This document shows positions 38,118 to 44,239 of a stretch of 64,000 nt of DNA, one piece after another. This DNA comes from Ostreococcus lucimarinus (taxonomy: Eukaryota), in NCBI GenBank assembly GCA_000092065.1, contig CP000595.1; one strand, given 5' to 3'. Below the pieces are notes generated by a model. It saw only the letters and a program-made list of their open reading frames with translations, ran no database searches and was not told the DNA's origin. Both the position numbers and the translations under genes were made by a program. How positions within the stretch are numbered: position 1 is the stretch's first letter; each line of letters starts with the position of its first letter.

Positions 38118-38942
38118 ATGGCGCCGGTCGATTTCCGCGCCGTGCGCGCGAAAGCGTTGATGCGCGAGTCAACGACGACGACGACGACGACGACGCGCGA
38201 CGACACCCTTTCGTTCGCCGCGCGCGGTGGATTCGTCGACACAGATGTCGATGACGAGATTTCATCTTCATCGTCGCCCGACGTCGCGAAACGCGTCCCG
38301 GGGTTGGCGTATTGTCGTGAATTCATCGGTGCGCGCGACGCCGAGTTCGTCGAAAGCGCGTTACTGCGCGAGCCCGCGGCGTGGTGGACGAAAGGACGCG
38401 GTCGAAGGGTGATGAACGCGGGCGGGACGTCGCCTTCGAGGTTGTATCGCGAAGGCGATGACGAGGCGATTCCGACGTACCTGCGCGAACTCGTGGAGGT
38501 TTTGGTACGACGGAAAGCGAGCGAGCGCGCGGCGAATCACGTGCTGGTGAATGAATACGACGCTGATGGATTCATTTCGCCGCATTCAGATGGGGACGTG
38601 TACGCGCCCGATGTGCAAATTTTGACGCTACGGTCGAGCGCGTTGATTGAGTTTTGGCCGGCAGAGGGCGCGACGGCGGGAGACTTTGATGAGTGTGACA
38701 ATATCGATGCACCGCGGCCGGTCGTGAGCGTGTTGCTTGAACCTAGAAGCTTGTTGATGTACCGCGGCGAAGCGTATCGCTTACGTCACGGTATTCGCGC
38801 GCGAGTAAAAGACGTAGTGGCTGCAGAAACGGCGAACGCACGCGAATTAGGATTAGAAATAGGCGACGTCGTCGAACGTAATCCCGCGGGGCGGCTCAGC
38901 GTGGTGTTCGTGCGAAAGTACGCGGAGAGAAGATGTGAGTAA
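38118..38942 (+). CDS. AlkB-like 2OG-Fe(II) oxygenase (tentative)
   Basis: HVLVNEYDADGFISPHSDG (HxD facial triad) and a distal RHGI. The track ORF overlaps the MRS2 3' end; the start was moved to the MAPVDF ATG. Confidence 0.5.
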   Translation: MAPVDFRAVRAKALMRESTTTTTTTTRDDTLSFAARGGFVDTDVDDEISSSSSPDVAKRVPGLAYCREFIGARDAEFVESALLREPAAWWTKGRGRRVMNAGGTSPSRLYREGDDEAIPTYLRELVEVLVRRKASERAANHVLVNEYDADGFISPHSDGDVYAPDVQILTLRSSALIEFWPAEGATAGDFDECDNIDAPRPVVSVLLEPRSLLMYRGEAYRLRHGIRARVKDVVAAETANARELGLEIGDVVERNPAGRLSVVFVRKYAERRCE

Positions 38943-38988: not shown

Positions 38989-39669
38989 TCACCTCGTTTC
39001 GAATCGAAATCGTCTAGGGTCGTCGTCGTCGTCGTCGTCATCGGACGGGTGCCTCGATGTGCGTCGTCGAGCCGACTCGCGTAGCAGTCGCGCGCGCGCG
39101 AAGAACTCGTCGGCTTGATCTCTCTTCGCGTGCGCTCGTCTCGACATCTCTCGAGCGCGTTGGCGAAGACGGCGATGCGCCTTGGCAAACATCGCATCGG
39201 CGTCATGTTCGAGCTCTTCAGCCATTCGTCGCAGCTGTAACGCTCGACTTTCGAGATGCGCTGGCGATGCGTTCACGTCGTCGCCGCGCTCTTCCATTTC
39301 CATTTCCTCTACCATCATTTCACGAAAGAGACGTTGCATTCTCGCGTCGCGCTCGGCGACACTCTCATCGTCCAGCGCAGCGTCGTCTTCGATGTTCTCC
39401 GCCGACGAAAAGTCGTTCGTCGTAGTTTCGTTCTTCGTATCGCTCTTCGTAGTTTCACTCTTCGTGTCGTCGCTCGACGTCGAAGACGTGCGAGAGGACC
39501 ACAGGGCGCCCATCTTTGGATTTGGCTGCGCGCTCGCTCGTTGGGGCACCAAGAGCCACGGCAAGGATGGTTTCACAGGCGATGGCGACGACGGGAAGAG
39601 CGATTTTTTTGCGAGTGTTCGTAGCAGCGACGCACGCACGGCGATCGTGGATCGAGCGAGCACGAACAT
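38989..39669 (-). CDS. Hypothetical acidic coiled-coil protein
   Basis: ATG at 39669. Normal protein composition with a poly-Asp tail. Internal MGALWSS is a possible N-myristoylation start. No recognisable family. Confidence 0.35.
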   Translation of the reverse strand: MFVLARSTIAVRASLLRTLAKKSLFPSSPSPVKPSLPWLLVPQRASAQPNPKMGALWSSRTSSTSSDDTKSETTKSDTKNETTTNDFSSAENIEDDAALDDESVAERDARMQRLFREMMVEEMEMEERGDDVNASPAHLESRALQLRRMAEELEHDADAMFAKAHRRLRQRAREMSRRAHAKRDQADEFFARARLLRESARRRTSRHPSDDDDDDDDPRRFRFETR

Positions 39670-39758: not shown

Positions 39759-41084
39759 TCACGCGCGTTTCTGACGCTTGAGTTGAGCGAGCGTGGGCAC
39801 AGCTCGCGCCATCGCGACACGCACGGATGTGGCGAACGTATCCTTCACACCCACGTCTCGCGCTGCTTTGGAAGATTGCAAGACGAAGACGCACGTGTCG
39901 TACGGCGACGCTCGATAGGGATCGCGCCGTTGATGCGAAGCGCCGTCGCAATATCCGTGGTCGACCGCGGCGATGAGTACGTTCGCTCGAAGAAACGCGC
40001 TGTTTGTGAGCGCATCGAACGCGCCCGTCTCTTTCCATCCCGGCATGATGAAGACAAACGTGAGCGCGTTTTGTGACTTCTCCGCGCGTTCGAGCAACGC
40101 CTCGCACCAGAGGGCGGCCTCGTCCAAGACCTCGCGCACGAAAGGTGGATTTACCTCGTACGACCCTCTCGACGGTTGAAACGCCGCGAACGAGCCGATG
40201 CTCCCGAACGGGGCGTCGACGTCGCCGAAAGCGCTGCAAAATCGCGCGAAGTACGCGTTCATGGGCGACGCGAAGCACTCCATCGTAACCTTCAGATCAT
40301 CGTGCAACACGCGGAAGACGTCGTGCGAGCACGCCGCTTGGAATCCATGGCCATGAATCGTTTTGTACCTAAGCAACAGCGCGAACATTCTGTCGTGCAC
40401 GTCGTCGTCACCGTCGTCGTCGCCGCCGGCGCGCGAGTGCTTTTCGTAAAGCGCGCGCAACTTGCCGTACGCCTCGTGCGTCAACTTGACCAAGTAATCG
40501 TCGCCAAGCGTCAAATCTCGCGAGTGTTTATGTATCGTCAATTTCGTCGCCGCGAGCTTGGCCAGACCGTGCGCGCCACCGTCCACCAGTTTCTGTTTCA
40601 TCGCCTCCAACGCGACGACCTCCTTCGCCGACGCCGCGCACACCGACGCCTCAATCTCGATGGCGATCGCCTCCGAGACCCCCGCGCGCATCAAATCGTT
40701 CGCCATCGTCCCTTTCGTCGCGCCGTCGTGCGCGACGTTCGGAAACATGGCGTCCGTGTTCTCCCCCACGAGGCCGCACGCGCCTCGTCTCCGCCGTTTC
40801 GTCTTTCCCTTTCCCGCCGCCGCCGCCGTTCGTCCCCGCGCCTCCTCCGCCAACTTCGTCGCGAACCTCCATCGCTCGAGCGCCAGCTGCGGCGGCGCTT
40901 CCAGTCCCCCCCTCCGTTCGCACGCCGCTCGAAACGCCTCTCGCACGCGTTTCATCGCCTCCGCGCGTCTCGCCTCGCAGTGCGCCGCCGCCCGCGCGCT
41001 CCGCGCCGTCGCCCGCGCGCACGCCGCGTCCACGCGCACGACCGCCGCGTCGTGTTCGACCGCGAAGTCGTACGATTGACCCAT
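39759..41084 (-). CDS. PCIF1/CAPAM-like (PCIF1_WW family) NPPF-motif RNA methyltransferase-domain protein
   Basis: ECFASPMNAYFARFCSAFGDVDAPFGSIGSF...GSYEVNPPF...FVFIMPGW aligns with the PCIF1 catalytic core including NPPF. Start at the MGQSY ATG (41084). The upstream track extension is a poly-Thr/Arg low-complexity tract encoded by (GTC)n. Confidence 0.6.
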   Translation of the reverse strand: MGQSYDFAVEHDAAVVRVDAACARATARSARAAAHCEARRAEAMKRVREAFRAACERRGGLEAPPQLALERWRFATKLAEEARGRTAAAAGKGKTKRRRRGACGLVGENTDAMFPNVAHDGATKGTMANDLMRAGVSEAIAIEIEASVCAASAKEVVALEAMKQKLVDGGAHGLAKLAATKLTIHKHSRDLTLGDDYLVKLTHEAYGKLRALYEKHSRAGGDDDGDDDVHDRMFALLLRYKTIHGHGFQAACSHDVFRVLHDDLKVTMECFASPMNAYFARFCSAFGDVDAPFGSIGSFAAFQPSRGSYEVNPPFVREVLDEAALWCEALLERAEKSQNALTFVFIMPGWKETGAFDALTNSAFLRANVLIAAVDHGYCDGASHQRRDPYRASPYDTCVFVLQSSKAARDVGVKDTFATSVRVAMARAVPTLAQLKRQKRA

Positions 41085-41090
41085 CGCGCG

Positions 41091-41305
41091 CGTCGTCGTC
41101 GTCGTCGTCGTCGCGCGTCGTCCCGCGTCGTCGTCCCGCGTCGTCGCCTTCGCCTTCGTCAGCGCGTGTAACGGTCCCGCCGTCCATCGTCGTCGCGGCG
41201 TCTTCGTCGTCGTCGTCCTCGTCGTCGCGCGCGGCGACGGCGTCTCTCGCGTCGTCGTCGTCGTCGTCGCTCGCGTCGTCGTCGGCGGCGGCTCTCGCGT
41301 CGTCA
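41091..41305. repeat. Interrupted (GTC/GAC)n trinucleotide tract
   Basis: (cgt)8 at 41091..41113 and further gtc runs at 41205..41305. They read as poly-Asp or poly-Thr depending on frame. Confidence 0.7.
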
Positions 41306-41485
41306 TGAAAGGTTCGCGCGACGACGCGTCGCGGCGCGCGGCGGTCGACGCGCGGCGGTCGCGCATCGTGGCGGTATACGGCGCATTTCGTGGCGGTGTA
41401 CGGCACACTCGATCGTATCGTAAGGCTCGTGGCCCCATATAGCGCGAAATGCGACGCCGCGCGCCCGCCCGCGCGTCTTTGGGTG

Positions 41486-41556
41486 CGATCGCGCGATCGA
41501 TCGATCGCGCGTCGCGAAACGCGATCGATCGATCGCGTTTCGCGCGCCGCGATCGA
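41486..41556. promoter_or_regulatory. Nested GATC-based palindromes in a divergent promoter: two copies of cgcgatcgatcgatcgcg embedded in a 32-nt perfect palindrome
   Basis: cgcgaaacgcgatcgatcgatcgcgtttcgcg at 41513..41544 is its own reverse complement. gcgcgatcgatcgatcgcgc at 41491..41510 is also palindromic. Confidence 0.6.
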
Positions 41557-41735
41557 CCGGTCAAAACCCTAGGCCCGCGAGGTCAATCGCCGCCCGGGCC
41601 CTCAATTGTCCCCACTCGTCGTCGTCGACGTCGTTCGACGCGATTCGATCGCGCCGCGAACGCGAGATCGACGACACCGACACCTTTCGCGTCGTTGAAC
41701 GCGCGCCTTGGCTCGATTCGCGCGTCGCGCGCGAC

Positions 41736-42635
41736 ATGAATGCCGACGAAATGATCGCCGACGGCGACGCGAACGGCGTCGACGTTCGCGCGCTCGACGA
41801 GGCGATGGCGATGGACGACGATCACGCGAGCGCGCGAAAGAGCGCGTCGTCCGCGCCCGCGAACGCGAACCCGCCGCTGCCGCCGAACGCGCGACCGCGG
41901 CACGAAGGGCGAGGCGGGGCGAACGGACACGGCGGCGAACGACGACGAGGCGGCGGCGAACGAGGCGGAGGACGAGGCGGTGGACGTTTTCAACAGCGAG
42001 AGCGCGCGCCGACGCGACCGGGGTGGTTCGCGACCGGGGAGGTGGACGAGCACAGCGGAAGGCCCGCGCACAGCGGACAGTGCGAGGGGTGCAGGGTGAG
42101 CACGGTTGTGAATTTCAGACCCGTGGTTGGCGGCAATCCACCGTTGTGCGGAGTGTGTTTGGATTCGTTGAAAGCCGCCACCGCGGGAGGATCGGTGGAC
42201 GGCGACAACGCGTCGGGCGGACCGAATCGTGGGCGACGAGGCGGGCGCAATGGGGCGATGATGATGATGGGGATGCCGCACCAAGGCGGGTTTCAGGGCG
42301 GCGCGAGGTTTTCGCCGTACGCCTCGGGCGGGCAGATGGTGATGATCGATCCACGGATGATGGCGGCGTACGGTGGAGGTCGTGGAGGCGGTATGATGGC
42401 GGCGTACGGCGCCGCCGGCGCGGGCGGCGGCGGTGGGCGCGGTAAGAACAGGACGTGGACGAGAGAAGGCGGAGACGCCGGCGCGGGGGTCGGCGGACAA
42501 GAAGACGTGGACACGTCGGGCATTCCGTGCATATTCTTCCAGCGCGGCGCGTGTCGCGCGGGGGATTCGTGTAAGTATTCCCATAGCGGTGAAGGCTCGG
42601 GCGCCGCGCCGGCGGAGATGAACGTTGAAATGTGA
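41736..42635 (+). CDS. CCCH-type zinc-finger, RGG/Gly-rich putative RNA-binding protein
   Basis: C-terminal C-x8-C-x5-C-x3-H (CIFFQRGACRAGDSCKYSH). RGG/GGR-rich middle region. ATG at 41736. Confidence 0.7.
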   Translation: MNADEMIADGDANGVDVRALDEAMAMDDDHASARKSASSAPANANPPLPPNARPRHEGRGGANGHGGERRRGGGERGGGRGGGRFQQRERAPTRPGWFATGEVDEHSGRPAHSGQCEGCRVSTVVNFRPVVGGNPPLCGVCLDSLKAATAGGSVDGDNASGGPNRGRRGGRNGAMMMMGMPHQGGFQGGARFSPYASGGQMVMIDPRMMAAYGGGRGGGMMAAYGAAGAGGGGGRGKNRTWTREGGDAGAGVGGQEDVDTSGIPCIFFQRGACRAGDSCKYSHSGEGSGAAPAEMNVEM

Positions 42636-42743
42636 GCGAAGGCGCCAAGTTTTGTAAATATACGTACGTCGGTCTGCGACTTCGAGCGCGGCGCGCGGCG
42701 TCGATTTCGCAAGCGTTCGCTTGTATTACACAAAAAAACTCCC

Positions 42744-42797
42744 CGAATTCATGACGCGGAGCGAATTCGTGACGCGAAGCGAATTCGTGACGCTTCG
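42744..42797. repeat. 18-bp x3 tandem repeat (gcgaattcgtgacgcgaa) with short inverted arms
   Basis: Lies in the 200-bp convergent 3' spacer between the CCCH gene and the amino-acid transporter gene. Confidence 0.6.
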
Positions 42798-42835
42798 CAT
42801 CGATCACACTCAAGAGATATCGTCACGTTCGCCCC

Positions 42836-44239
42836 TTAGAGGACGATAGAAAGCACGATGCACGTGACGCCCGTGACGAAGACGCCGCCGATTCTCGCGA
42901 GCTCGAGCGGGACGATTTCAGCCTTGACCTTCTTTTGCGTCAAGTACAGAATCATCGCCGGCAAGACGAGAGAGAGAATGGAGCAGCACACACCACCGAC
43001 GTAGCCGAGGACGACGCCAAAGTTCGGGACGTTAGCTGCGGTCCAAAGCGCGCCCGCGGTGAACGCGGTGCGCACGGCGAGCGCTTGCGGCGCGCCGATG
43101 GATCCCGGCTTGTCGCCTTCGAGCACGTTTTCGCAAATGCGGAGCGCGGATTGCGCCATGATCGGGTACGTGGACAGCAAGTTCAAGCACAACAACAGTT
43201 GCACCGCGATCCCCGACGGGCCCGTGAGCATGGTGACGACGACTGAGGAGACCCCCGTGCCGAAACCCGCGGCGCCGGCGACGCCAAAGAGCCCGGCGAT
43301 GACGGCGGCGCCCGTGAACGCCTTCACCGCGGCACCGAAGAACTTATCCGGTTGCGGCATCGCTTCCTTAATCCCGAACAGGGTGAAGTGAATGAAGAAC
43401 AAAAACGCCACGGTGCCGAAGAATCCCGGAAACGCCGCAAAGTTGGCCACCGGCAACGCGCCGAGTTGCAGCGGGTTGGACAGCGCCGTCGCCGTCGTCA
43501 CCGCCATGCCGACCGCGACCGACGCGGTGCCGACGGCGGAAATCACAGCCACGCCGCTCATCTCGCGCAACCACGACAGCGCGATCATGAGCGGCCCGAC
43601 GAGCGCGAGCATGCTCGCCGTCGTCGGCGACGCCCCGAACGCGCTCACCCCGAGCGCGGGCACCACCACCTTCATCGTCTCCGCGATGAAGATTAAATAG
43701 CTCACCGTGATCCCGAAGCACGTCAGCACGTTCATCACTCGGCACGCCGCGTCTCCCGCGCGTCCCATCGCCGCGTTCGTCAGCCCCGCGTACGTCGCCA
43801 CCTCGCTCGCCGTCGACGCTCCCGCGCCGACGAGCGCGTCCTGCGCCTTAATCAGCATTCGCAGCGCCTCGAGCGCGAACACCAGCGACGCCGCCATGCA
43901 CGTCCCCACGAGCGCGATCCCTCCCTGCGCGAACGCCCACGGCAGCGCGAACCCCCCCGCGCCGAAGATCGCCTTCACCGTGTTCACGATCGCCGCGTTT
44001 TCCCCGCTCGCGTCGCCCGCGGACGCGAAAGTTCGCGTCGCTCGCGCCTCGCGCGTCCCGCGTCCCGCGATCGTCGTCGCGTCGTCGCGACGCGCGCGTC
44101 CCGCGTCCAACGGGACGCGCGCGAAACCGCGTCGCGCGCGCGCGCGTCGCTCGATCGCGACGCCGCGTCGCGTCGGTCGCGCCGTCGCGCGTCCGGCGAC
44201 GCATCCGCGCGTCGCGCGCGTCGCCGTCGTCGTCGCCAT
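42836..44239 (-). CDS. Amino acid transporter (AAAP/SLC38-like, Aa_trans family)
   Basis: About 11 TM segments. N-terminal IVNTVKAIFGAGGFALPWAF typical of Aa_trans. Start at the MATTTA ATG (44239). The upstream track extension is an Arg/Ala artefact. Confidence 0.8.
   Translation of the reverse strand: MATTTATRATRGCVAGRATARPTRRGVAIERRARARRGFARVPLDAGRARRDDATTIAGRGTREARATRTFASAGDASGENAAIVNTVKAIFGAGGFALPWAFAQGGIALVGTCMAASLVFALEALRMLIKAQDALVGAGASTASEVATYAGLTNAAMGRAGDAACRVMNVLTCFGITVSYLIFIAETMKVVVPALGVSAFGASPTTASMLALVGPLMIALSWLREMSGVAVISAVGTASVAVGMAVTTATALSNPLQLGALPVANFAAFPGFFGTVAFLFFIHFTLFGIKEAMPQPDKFFGAAVKAFTGAAVIAGLFGVAGAAGFGTGVSSVVVTMLTGPSGIAVQLLLCLNLLSTYPIMAQSALRICENVLEGDKPGSIGAPQALAVRTAFTAGALWTAANVPNFGVVLGYVGGVCCSILSLVLPAMILYLTQKKVKAEIVPLELARIGGVFVTGVTCIVLSIVL

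What the first reader, a model, noticed from the sequence alone, without database searches (positions are those of the whole stretch)
39759..41084. PCIF1/CAPAM-like NPPF methyltransferase-domain gene in a green-lineage genome
The C-terminal 250 aa align block by block with the PCIF1 catalytic and helical region: ECFASPMN.YF..FCSAF.D.D..FGS.GSF, then the defining NPPF motif, then the F.FIMP.W block. PCIF1 is the metazoan cap-specific m6Am writer. It is generally considered absent from land plants and fungi, so a clear homologue in an intron-poor picoalga is unexpected. The expected N-terminal WW domain is not visible. A (GTC)n and poly-Asp low-complexity tract replaces it.
Basis: partly seen in the sequence, partly recalled or inferred. 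Interest (0 to 1): 0.6.

Follow-up and report, generated by a model that had tools for sequence, protein, structure and literature searches.

The report
Ostreococcus PCIF1-type cap adenosine methyltransferase gene
This is a real, intact green-algal copy of the enzyme that in vertebrates methylates the first adenosine after the mRNA cap, but the family is ancient and widespread in eukaryotes and public databases already label this gene, so it is an ordinary find.

Summary
The minus-strand ORF ending at 39759 encodes a full PCIF1/CAPAM core.

- Pfam PF12237 matches end to end (E 6e-60, 202 bits against a cut-off of 31).
- NPPF (N406-F409) follows a modelled β-strand, and the family's invariant residues checked in the MTase region are intact.

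- The window is Ostreococcus lucimarinus CCE9901. The gene is already XP_001421800.1 / UniProt A4S8Q2, named "PCIF1 WW domain-containing protein".
A family-conserved N-terminal motif (RRRWTAGPLHALTKAK) lies there.
- The triplet repeat reads poly-Thr in frame, not poly-Asp.

The claim that the gene is unexpected is not supported.
- Iyer et al. [quoted passage not shown]
- Homologues occur in Prasinoderma, Pseudoscourfieldia, Tetradesmus, Chlamydomonas, chytrids, haptophytes and dinoflagellates.
- The gene branches among green-algal sequences and has the host's codon composition.
- None of 74 close homologues has a WW domain.

Most likely it is a SAM-dependent N6-methyltransferase acting on the cap-adjacent adenosine. 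Activity is inferred, not shown.

The parts
39759..41366 (-). Most likely complete CDS of the PCIF1/CAPAM homologue: 535 aa plus the TGA stop at 39759-39761, one exon.
   Evidence: ORF list and sequence. Metagenome gene calls of 535 and 515 aa that are 99-100% identical. The N-terminal motif is conserved in homologues. The C-terminal 398 aa equal XP_001421800.1 of O. lucimarinus.
41148..41195 (-). Conserved N-terminal motif RRRWTAGPLHALTKAK (aa 58-73). The family consensus is basic-x-T-x-x-x-(L/A)-H-x-x-T. Its function is unknown.
   Evidence: Alignment of 74 homologues. Blocks 51-80 of the AlphaFold model have mean pLDDT 75/92/75, while the flanking low-complexity sequence is below 50. The motif is invariant among environmental variants.
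41091..41284 (-). Imperfect triplet repeat: (CGT)n on the plus strand, ACG = Thr in the gene's frame. It gives a Thr/Arg-rich tract that is mostly predicted disordered and flanks the N-terminal motif.
   Evidence: Tandem Repeats Finder: period 3, 68.7 copies, 70% matches. Composition T31 R18 A13 in the first 94 aa. pLDDT is below 50 for residues 1-44 and 90-94.
40464..41027 (-). Helical domain (about aa 114-301): long helices 124-153, 162-184 and 232-269 plus a small sheet at 275-295. It corresponds to the CAPAM helical domain.
40782..40811 (-). Basic cluster KGKTKRRRRG (aa 186-195), with basic clusters at the corresponding place in several homologues. It may be a nuclear localisation signal or an RNA-binding loop (inferred).
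   Evidence: Sequences of homologues P0003, P0005 and P0023 show basic clusters at the corresponding place. No experiment bears on this.
39942..40463 (-). Methyltransferase catalytic region (aa 302-475), the Pfam PF12237 'PCIF1_WW' match. The Pfam name is misleading: the model covers the Rossmann-fold catalytic region, not the WW domain.
   Evidence: Pfam match 1-176/176, E about 1e-59. Columns invariant in 74 homologues: R333 Y334 E363 S367 P368 N370 D382 D384 F387 G388 G391 N406 P407 P408 F409 L435 H470 G475. Of these, at least R333-Y334, E363, S367-P368, N370, F387-G388, the NPPF motif and H470 match the human and zebrafish chains in the alignment.
40140..40151 (-). Catalytic NPPF motif (N406-F409, codons aat cca cct ttc).
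   Evidence: Read directly from the sequence. It follows modelled strand 401-405 and is invariant in 74 homologues.
41367..41735 (.). Short divergent intergenic region shared with the zf-CCCH gene (41736-42635, plus strand). It contains a 28-bp tandem repeat with GATC palindromes at 41492-41556. There is little room, and no signal, for a WW-encoding exon.
   Evidence: ORF list, gene calls on L001, TRF, six-frame WW pattern search.

Best explanation
Window 39759-41366 (minus strand) is the single-exon nuclear gene of Ostreococcus lucimarinus CCE9901 for its orthologue of PCIF1/CAPAM. The protein has the two-domain catalytic core of the vertebrate enzyme: a helical domain packed against a Rossmann-fold, SAM-dependent adenine-N6 methyltransferase domain with the NPPF motif. 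It lacks the N-terminal WW domain. In its place are a Thr/Arg-rich disordered tract and a short motif conserved among protist and algal homologues.

Shown here: family membership, fold, an intact catalytic motif, placement among green-algal sequences, and host-like composition.

Inferred: like vertebrate PCIF1, it binds the m7G cap of nascent or newly made RNA polymerase II transcripts between the two domains. It then transfers a methyl group from SAM to N6 of the first transcribed adenosine, giving m6Am. If Ostreococcus does not 2'-O-methylate that nucleotide, the product would be cap-adjacent m6A. Without a WW domain, it would reach its substrates by cap recognition alone or through some other contact, not through the Ser5-phosphorylated CTD.

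The gene was most likely inherited vertically from the last eukaryotic common ancestor and later lost in land plants.
For: Family and fold:
- PF12237 over the full profile, E 6e-60.
- PDB sequence hits only to CAPAM/PCIF1, E 1e-33 to 4e-36.
- AlphaFold2 model with pLDDT 86 and pTM 0.85.
- Foldseek: the six best PDB hits are all CAPAM/PCIF1 (E 1e-21 to 1e-24, TM 0.57-0.68); the next hit has E 0.04.

Catalytic competence:
- NPPF and 14 other invariant family positions are present. Those spot-checked against the alignment (R333-Y334, E363, S367-P368, N370, F387-G388, NPPF, H470) match the active vertebrate enzymes.
- The WW domain is not needed for methylation in vitro (PMC8287941).

Organism and prior annotation: the neighbouring zf-CCCH protein equals XP_001421668.1 and the C-terminal 398 aa equal XP_001421800.1 / A4S8Q2.

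Vertical inheritance:
- The NJ tree places it with two unnamed metagenome sequences (bootstrap 100).
- That group is sister to Pseudoscourfieldia (69), inside a group that includes Chlamydomonas UWO241 (52).
- Prasinoderma also has a homologue.
- GC3 is 0.80 against 0.73-0.80 in neighbouring genes.
- The neighbours are ordinary eukaryotic housekeeping genes.
- Only 2 dubious hits were found in 185,579 prokaryote genomes.
- Viral homologues are only 25-39% identical.

Conservation: environmental variants are 99-100% identical in protein sequence over the whole length.

Literature: the PCIF1 clade is traced to LECA (PMC4738411).
Against: - No biochemical or RNA-modification data exist for any green alga in the searchable library.
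- An intact or near-intact motif does not guarantee m6Am in vivo. Honey bee Pcif1 has NPPY, yet no m6Am was detected (PMC9479742).
- The cap-binding residues of CAPAM could not be checked one by one, because neither the crystal coordinates nor the original structure paper were available.
- The middle of the helical domain is too diverged for sequence alignment.
- Whether Ostreococcus has a cap 2'-O-methyltransferase, which makes the preferred Am substrate, was not tested.
- The lack of a WW domain removes the only known route for co-transcriptional recruitment.
Confidence: 0.65

Rival explanations
1. It is an active PCIF1-fold N6-adenine methyltransferase, but with a different substrate from vertebrate PCIF1. 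Candidates are snRNA or other non-coding Pol II transcripts, internal adenosines, or DNA.
For: There is no WW domain, so the CTD link is missing. Identity to vertebrate enzymes is only 35-36% in the MTase region, and most of the helical domain does not align by sequence. Human PCIF1 shows DNA and internal-site activity in vitro (PMC9178792).
Confidence: 0.2
2. It is a non-catalytic, regulatory PCIF1, as in Drosophila.
For: Fly Pcif1 is catalytically dead yet functional (PMC10158991). m6Am is undetectable in bees despite a near-canonical motif (PMC9479742).
Against: Fly Pcif1 has NPPH and keeps the WW domain that mediates its non-catalytic role. The algal protein is the reverse case: NPPF and all invariant positions are intact and there is no WW domain. 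The catalytic region is nearly invariant in natural populations.
Confidence: 0.1
3. The gene was acquired recently by horizontal transfer from a giant virus, a bacterium or another eukaryote, or it is a domesticated DIRS1-retrotransposon methyltransferase domain.
For: PF12237 genes exist on giant-virus-type contigs (17 loci). Iyer et al. describe PCIF1-derived MTase domains in DIRS1 elements.
Against: - The nearest named relatives are green algae (52% identity to Pseudoscourfieldia, against 25-39% to viral copies).
- Codon composition matches the neighbours.
- No reverse transcriptase or recombinase lies nearby.
- DIRS1 copies are described as having substitutions in catalytic and substrate-binding residues; here the catalytic motif and invariant positions are intact.
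- The full helical domain is present.
Confidence: 0.03

Closest known systems
Vertebrate PCIF1/CAPAM (human 6IRV/6IRW, zebrafish 6IRX-6IS0), the cap-specific m6Am writer
WW-less PCIF1 homologues of other algae and protists (Pseudoscourfieldia marina, Prasinoderma coloniale, Tetradesmus obliquus, Chlamydomonas sp. UWO241, Prymnesium, Polarella, chytrid fungi)
   Same: The same architecture: PF12237 is the only recurrent Pfam domain and none of the 74 has a WW domain. They share the N-terminal T..H..T motif, the ERWRF block and the C-terminal core. Identity is 31-64%.
   Different: In the Ostreococcus protein a triplet-repeat-encoded Thr-rich tract occupies the place of the PTGxG...LWD...KWAPP segment that most other members have between the N-terminal motif and the helical domain.
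Drosophila Pcif1 (catalytically dead)
   Same: The same family: helical and MTase domains.
   Different: The fly protein keeps the WW domain but has NPPH and is inactive (PMC10158991, PMC9479742). The algal protein keeps NPPF but has no WW domain.
Other NPPF/DPPW N6-adenine RNA methyltransferases (METTL16, METTL5, ZCCHC4, RlmJ) and the M.TaqI / M.EcoKI DNA methyltransferases
   Different: They have no CAPAM-type helical domain and no sequence-level similarity. They are related only at superfamily level, so this protein is not a member of those families.

Membership tests
PCIF1/CAPAM (Pfam PF12237) | Significant match to the family profile over its whole length | tested here: met
   PF12237 1-176/176, E 6.3e-60, 202 bits against a cut-off of 31.1. 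In the 50%-identity representative library, 3174 proteins match at E <= 0.001.
PCIF1/CAPAM (Pfam PF12237) | Catalytic NPPF motif following strand 4 of a Rossmann-fold MTase domain | tested here: met
   N406-P407-P408-F409 directly follow modelled strand 401-405. Codons are at window 40140-40151.
PCIF1/CAPAM (Pfam PF12237) | CAPAM-specific helical domain packed against the MTase domain (the cleft that holds the m7G cap) | tested here: met
PCIF1/CAPAM (Pfam PF12237) | Individual m7G-cap and SAM-contacting residues conserved | tested here: inconclusive
   The MTase-side blocks identical to the human and zebrafish enzymes (ECFASP.N, D.D..FGS.G.F, NPPF, H470) are present. The published contact residues could not be retrieved (the Akichika 2019 paper was not looked for, and PMC6703822 is not held). 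The helical-domain side does not align by sequence.
PCIF1 in the strict sense (phosphorylated-CTD interacting factor) | N-terminal WW domain that binds the Ser5-phosphorylated Pol II CTD | tested here: not met
   No WW Pfam hit at E <= 1 in the 601-aa ORF. No WW-like pattern in six frames of 41000-43000. None of 74 close homologues has one. The WW domain is dispensable for catalysis (PMC8287941). So this counts against 'CTD-interacting factor', not against membership of the methyltransferase family.
PCIF1/CAPAM (Pfam PF12237) | Cap-dependent N6-methylation of the first transcribed adenosine (m6Am formation) | not testable with these tools
   This needs an enzyme assay or LC-MS/MS of decapped mRNA. 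No such data for green algae were found in the library.
DIRS1-retrotransposon PCIF1-like MTase domain | Embedded in a polyprotein with reverse transcriptase and tyrosine recombinase; catalytic residues degenerate | tested here: not met
   It is a stand-alone gene between a zf-CCCH gene and a small coiled-coil gene, with no transposon domains nearby. The catalytic residues are intact.
METTL16 / METTL5 type NPPF m6A methyltransferases | Sequence or close structural match to those families | tested here: not met

The most novel reading that the evidence does not exclude
Marine picoalgae such as Ostreococcus, and many other protists, may mark the cap-adjacent adenosine of their mRNAs with N6-methylation, using a WW-less PCIF1. 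Instead of reaching its substrate through the Pol II CTD, this enzyme would work through cap recognition alone, or through the conserved N-terminal basic-T-x-x-x-L-H-x-x-T motif that the structure model places with confidence. Cap m6A(m) would then be an ancestral eukaryotic mark lost in land plants, and the WW-mediated CTD coupling would be a lineage-specific addition.
Probability: 0.45. Interest if true: 0.4.

Novelty: already known. Interest (0 to 1): 0.2.

Why it matters
The practical value is limited.

- It corrects the idea that PCIF1 is an animal-specific enzyme whose presence in a green alga needs a special explanation. [quoted passage not shown] Land plants are the lineage that lost it.
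- It shows that the public O. lucimarinus gene model (398 aa) is truncated at the N-terminus. The model removes part of a conserved helix of the helical domain and a conserved N-terminal motif.
- It identifies Ostreococcus, which is genetically tractable, as a convenient system to ask two questions: whether cap-adjacent m6A(m) exists outside animals, and how a PCIF1 without a WW domain finds its substrates.

None of this would surprise a specialist in RNA-modification enzymes.

Tried and rejected
- A Foldseek search of the AlphaFold database (afdb50), meant to give a taxonomic survey including land plants, could not run because the library is not installed.
- The supplement of Iyer et al. 2016, which would list family members per species, is not held. 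Boulias et al. 2019 is not held either. The published cap-contact residues therefore could not be mapped.
- NCBIfam, a prokaryote-oriented library, gave no hit for the protein or for its AlkB-like neighbour.
- I tested whether the AlkB-like 2OG oxygenase two genes away (38121-38942) forms a writer/eraser pair with the methyltransferase. The neighbourhood is not conserved at the loci of the 63%- and 52%-identical homologues, so I treat the proximity as coincidence.
- Bacterial origin or recent transfer: only 2 of 185,579 prokaryote genomes gave a hit. One of them is a glycosyltransferase fusion on a contig whose neighbouring gene looks viral or eukaryotic. Rejected.
- Viral origin: viral copies are much more distant than the green-algal ones. 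Rejected.
- The first tree script timed out. It was rerun with a faster distance method. The result is a neighbour-joining tree on 206 columns with moderate support, not a full maximum-likelihood analysis.
- Literature searches combining PCIF1 with green algae, Chlamydomonas, Ostreococcus or Micromonas found no experimental work on an algal PCIF1.

Full report
**What is there.** The minus strand of the window carries an ORF that is open from 41564 to the TGA at 39759-39761. Pfam PF12237 (PCIF1_WW) matches it over the entire profile (1-176 of 176), with E = 6.3e-60 and 202 bits against a gathering score of 31.1. The only solved structures it matches by sequence are zebrafish CAPAM (6irx, E 3.7e-36) and human PCIF1 (6irv, E 1.2e-33). 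A second weak aligned stretch at the start of the helical domain includes the ERWRF / NRWLL block. One caution on naming: despite the name 'PCIF1_WW', PF12237 covers the catalytic region, not the WW domain.

**Which organism, and is the gene already known.**
- The neighbouring zf-CCCH protein (41736-42632, plus strand) is residue-for-residue XP_001421668.1 of Ostreococcus lucimarinus CCE9901.
- The C-terminal 398 residues of the ORF equal XP_001421800.1 / ABP00094.1 / UniProt A4S8Q2. NCBI calls it 'predicted protein' and UniRef calls it 'PCIF1 WW domain-containing protein'.
- JGI/IMG annotates the environmental copies as 'phosphorylated CTD-interacting factor 1'.

The gene is therefore already labelled in public databases, although nothing in the searchable literature discusses it.

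**Gene model.** Four start codons are in play:
- M138 (40955, the NCBI model, 398 aa);
- M21 (41306, 515 aa);
- M1 (41366, 535 aa, the metagenome gene calls).

In Ostreococcus it reads RRRWTAGPLHALTKAK; the consensus is basic-x-T-x-x-x-(L/A)-H-x-x-T. In the AlphaFold2 model this stretch has pLDDT 75-92, while the surrounding low-complexity sequence is below 50. It is also invariant in environmental variants. The CDS therefore begins at 41366 or 41306.

The NCBI model starts in the middle of helix 124-153, which aligns with the vertebrate enzymes, so that model is truncated. Poly-Asp belongs to a different frame. The whole homologous region is one continuous ORF, so no intron is needed.

**Structure.**
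- With the 74-sequence alignment, AlphaFold2 gives mean pLDDT 86 and pTM 0.85.
- In Foldseek against the PDB, the six best hits are all CAPAM/PCIF1 entries (E 1e-21 to 1e-24, TM 0.57-0.68). The seventh hit has E 0.04.

Both the CAPAM-specific helical domain and the Rossmann methyltransferase domain are thus present in the same arrangement. NPPF (N406-F409, window 40140-40151) follows modelled strand 401-405.

**Catalytic residues.** Eighteen columns are invariant in the 74 homologues: R333, Y334, E363, S367, P368, N370, D382, D384, F387, G388, G391, NPPF, L435, H470 and G475. Those I checked against the HMMER alignment (R333-Y334, E363, S367-P368, N370, F387-G388, NPPF, H470) are also identical in the active human and zebrafish enzymes. 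By contrast, the inactive Drosophila protein has NPPH (PMC9479742; PMC10158991).

**WW domain.**
- Pfam finds no WW domain even at E <= 1 in the full 601-aa ORF.
- A six-frame pattern search of 41000-43000 finds none.
- The intergenic space to the divergently transcribed zf-CCCH gene is only about 370 bp.
- None of the 74 closest homologues has a WW domain.

The WW-less form is therefore the norm in this part of the family, not a peculiarity of this gene. The WW domain is not needed for catalysis in vitro (PMC8287941).

**Is it unexpected in a green alga?** No.
- Named homologues here include the green algae Pseudoscourfieldia marina (52% identity), Tetradesmus obliquus, Chlamydomonas sp. UWO241 and Prasinoderma coloniale. 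They also include chytrid fungi, Prymnesium, Polarella and Nannochloropsis.
- An exhaustive HMMER scan of 1.84 billion cluster representatives finds 3174 family members at E <= 0.001 and 336 at E <= 1e-30.
- The literature supports only the absence from land plants (PMC12973405).

**Vertical or horizontal?**
- A neighbour-joining tree on 206 well-aligned MTase columns groups the Ostreococcus protein with two unnamed metagenome sequences (bootstrap 100).
- That group is sister to Pseudoscourfieldia (69), inside a group containing Chlamydomonas UWO241 (52). Vertebrates sit on a long separate branch.
- GC and GC3 (0.66 and 0.80) match the neighbouring genes.
- The neighbours are ordinary nuclear genes: MRS2 magnesium transporter, NDUFA12, site-1 protease, RCC1, an exportin-like protein and COG5.
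- Only two of 185,579 prokaryote genomes gave a hit, and at least one looks mis-binned.
- Giant-virus copies are 25-39% identical.

All of this fits vertical descent. The tree is simple and its deeper nodes are weakly supported, so this conclusion is likely rather than proven.

**Mechanism.** Shown: the fold, the motifs and the family. Inferred from the vertebrate enzymes (PMC8287941, PMC11345611): the protein binds SAM in the Rossmann domain and holds the m7G cap between the helical and catalytic domains. It then methylates N6 of the first transcribed adenosine. Vertebrate PCIF1 prefers 2'-O-methylated A about eightfold but also accepts A. The algal product would therefore be m6Am if a cap 2'-O-methyltransferase exists in Ostreococcus, and cap-adjacent m6A if not. 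This was not tested. Without a WW domain, coupling to the Ser5-phosphorylated CTD is not expected. The conserved N-terminal motif and the basic cluster KGKTKRRRRG are candidates for localisation or recruitment, but that is speculation.

Caveats: honey bee Pcif1 has a near-canonical motif yet no detectable m6Am, and no cap-modification data exist for green algae. I put family membership at about 0.97 and the specific cap-adjacent activity at about 0.6-0.65.

**Verdict.** This is a correct identification of an ordinary, already-annotated orthologue of an ancient eukaryotic family. The 'unexpected' framing does not hold. Small useful outcomes are a corrected 5' gene boundary, the recognition that algal and protist PCIF1s are WW-less and share an N-terminal motif, and a testable suggestion that cap-adjacent adenosine methylation exists in marine picoalgae.

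Noticed in passing
IMG/VR loci L010-L026, e.g. L011:2371-3666 (+): Seventeen giant-virus-type contigs, several labelled GVMAG, encode PF12237 (PCIF1-type) methyltransferase domains. The L011 protein (431 aa) hits PF12237 at E 2e-22, has NPPY instead of NPPF, and is 39% identical to the Ostreococcus protein over aa 331-467. One 164-kb contig carries two copies (L011, L015). A viral cap-adjacent adenosine methyltransferase may be worth a separate look.
   Followed up: partly
L008:1501-3579 (+), contig CAYUOL010000060.1 of an 'Iamiaceae bacterium' MAG: A 692-aa fusion of a family-8 glycosyltransferase domain with a PCIF1-type MTase domain (PF12237, E 5e-29). The neighbouring gene encodes a Pro-rich protein with KKNKKNKK repeats. 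The contig looks viral or eukaryotic and is probably mis-binned. Only 2 hits were found in 185,579 prokaryote genomes.
   Followed up: partly
window 38121-38942 (+): An AlkB-like 2OG-Fe(II) oxygenase gene (PF13532, 30.7 bits, just under the 31.2 cut-off) lies two genes from the methyltransferase. That would suggest a writer/eraser pair, but the neighbourhood is not conserved at the loci of the 63%- and 52%-identical homologues (L005, L007), so the proximity is probably coincidental.
   Followed up: yes
window 40955-41366 (-): The public O. lucimarinus gene model XP_001421800.1 / A4S8Q2 (398 aa) starts at an internal Met inside conserved helix 124-153. It omits the conserved N-terminal motif, so the database entry appears to be truncated at the N-terminus by 117-137 residues.
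   Followed up: yes
window 41492-41556: A 28-bp tandem repeat (2.3 copies, 86% matches) rich in GATCGATCGATCGC palindromes lies in the short divergent intergenic region between the methyltransferase gene and the zf-CCCH gene. It may be a shared promoter element.
   Followed up: no
window 38989-39669 (-): The 226-aa ORF immediately downstream of the methyltransferase gene, on the same strand, is acidic and basic, looks like a coiled coil, ends in a poly-Asp run, and has only sub-threshold Pfam hits (FUSC, Neugrin). Metagenome gene callers split or shift this gene differently (139, 129 or 236 aa). Its function is unknown.
   Followed up: no
environmental variants P0116-P0128 of the window protein: Metagenome copies from several marine samples are 99-100% identical in protein sequence over the whole length, including the Thr-rich tract. 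They differ only by a 2-residue indel (EA) and a few substitutions. The low-complexity N-terminus is therefore stable in natural populations, despite being encoded by a triplet repeat.
   Followed up: partly
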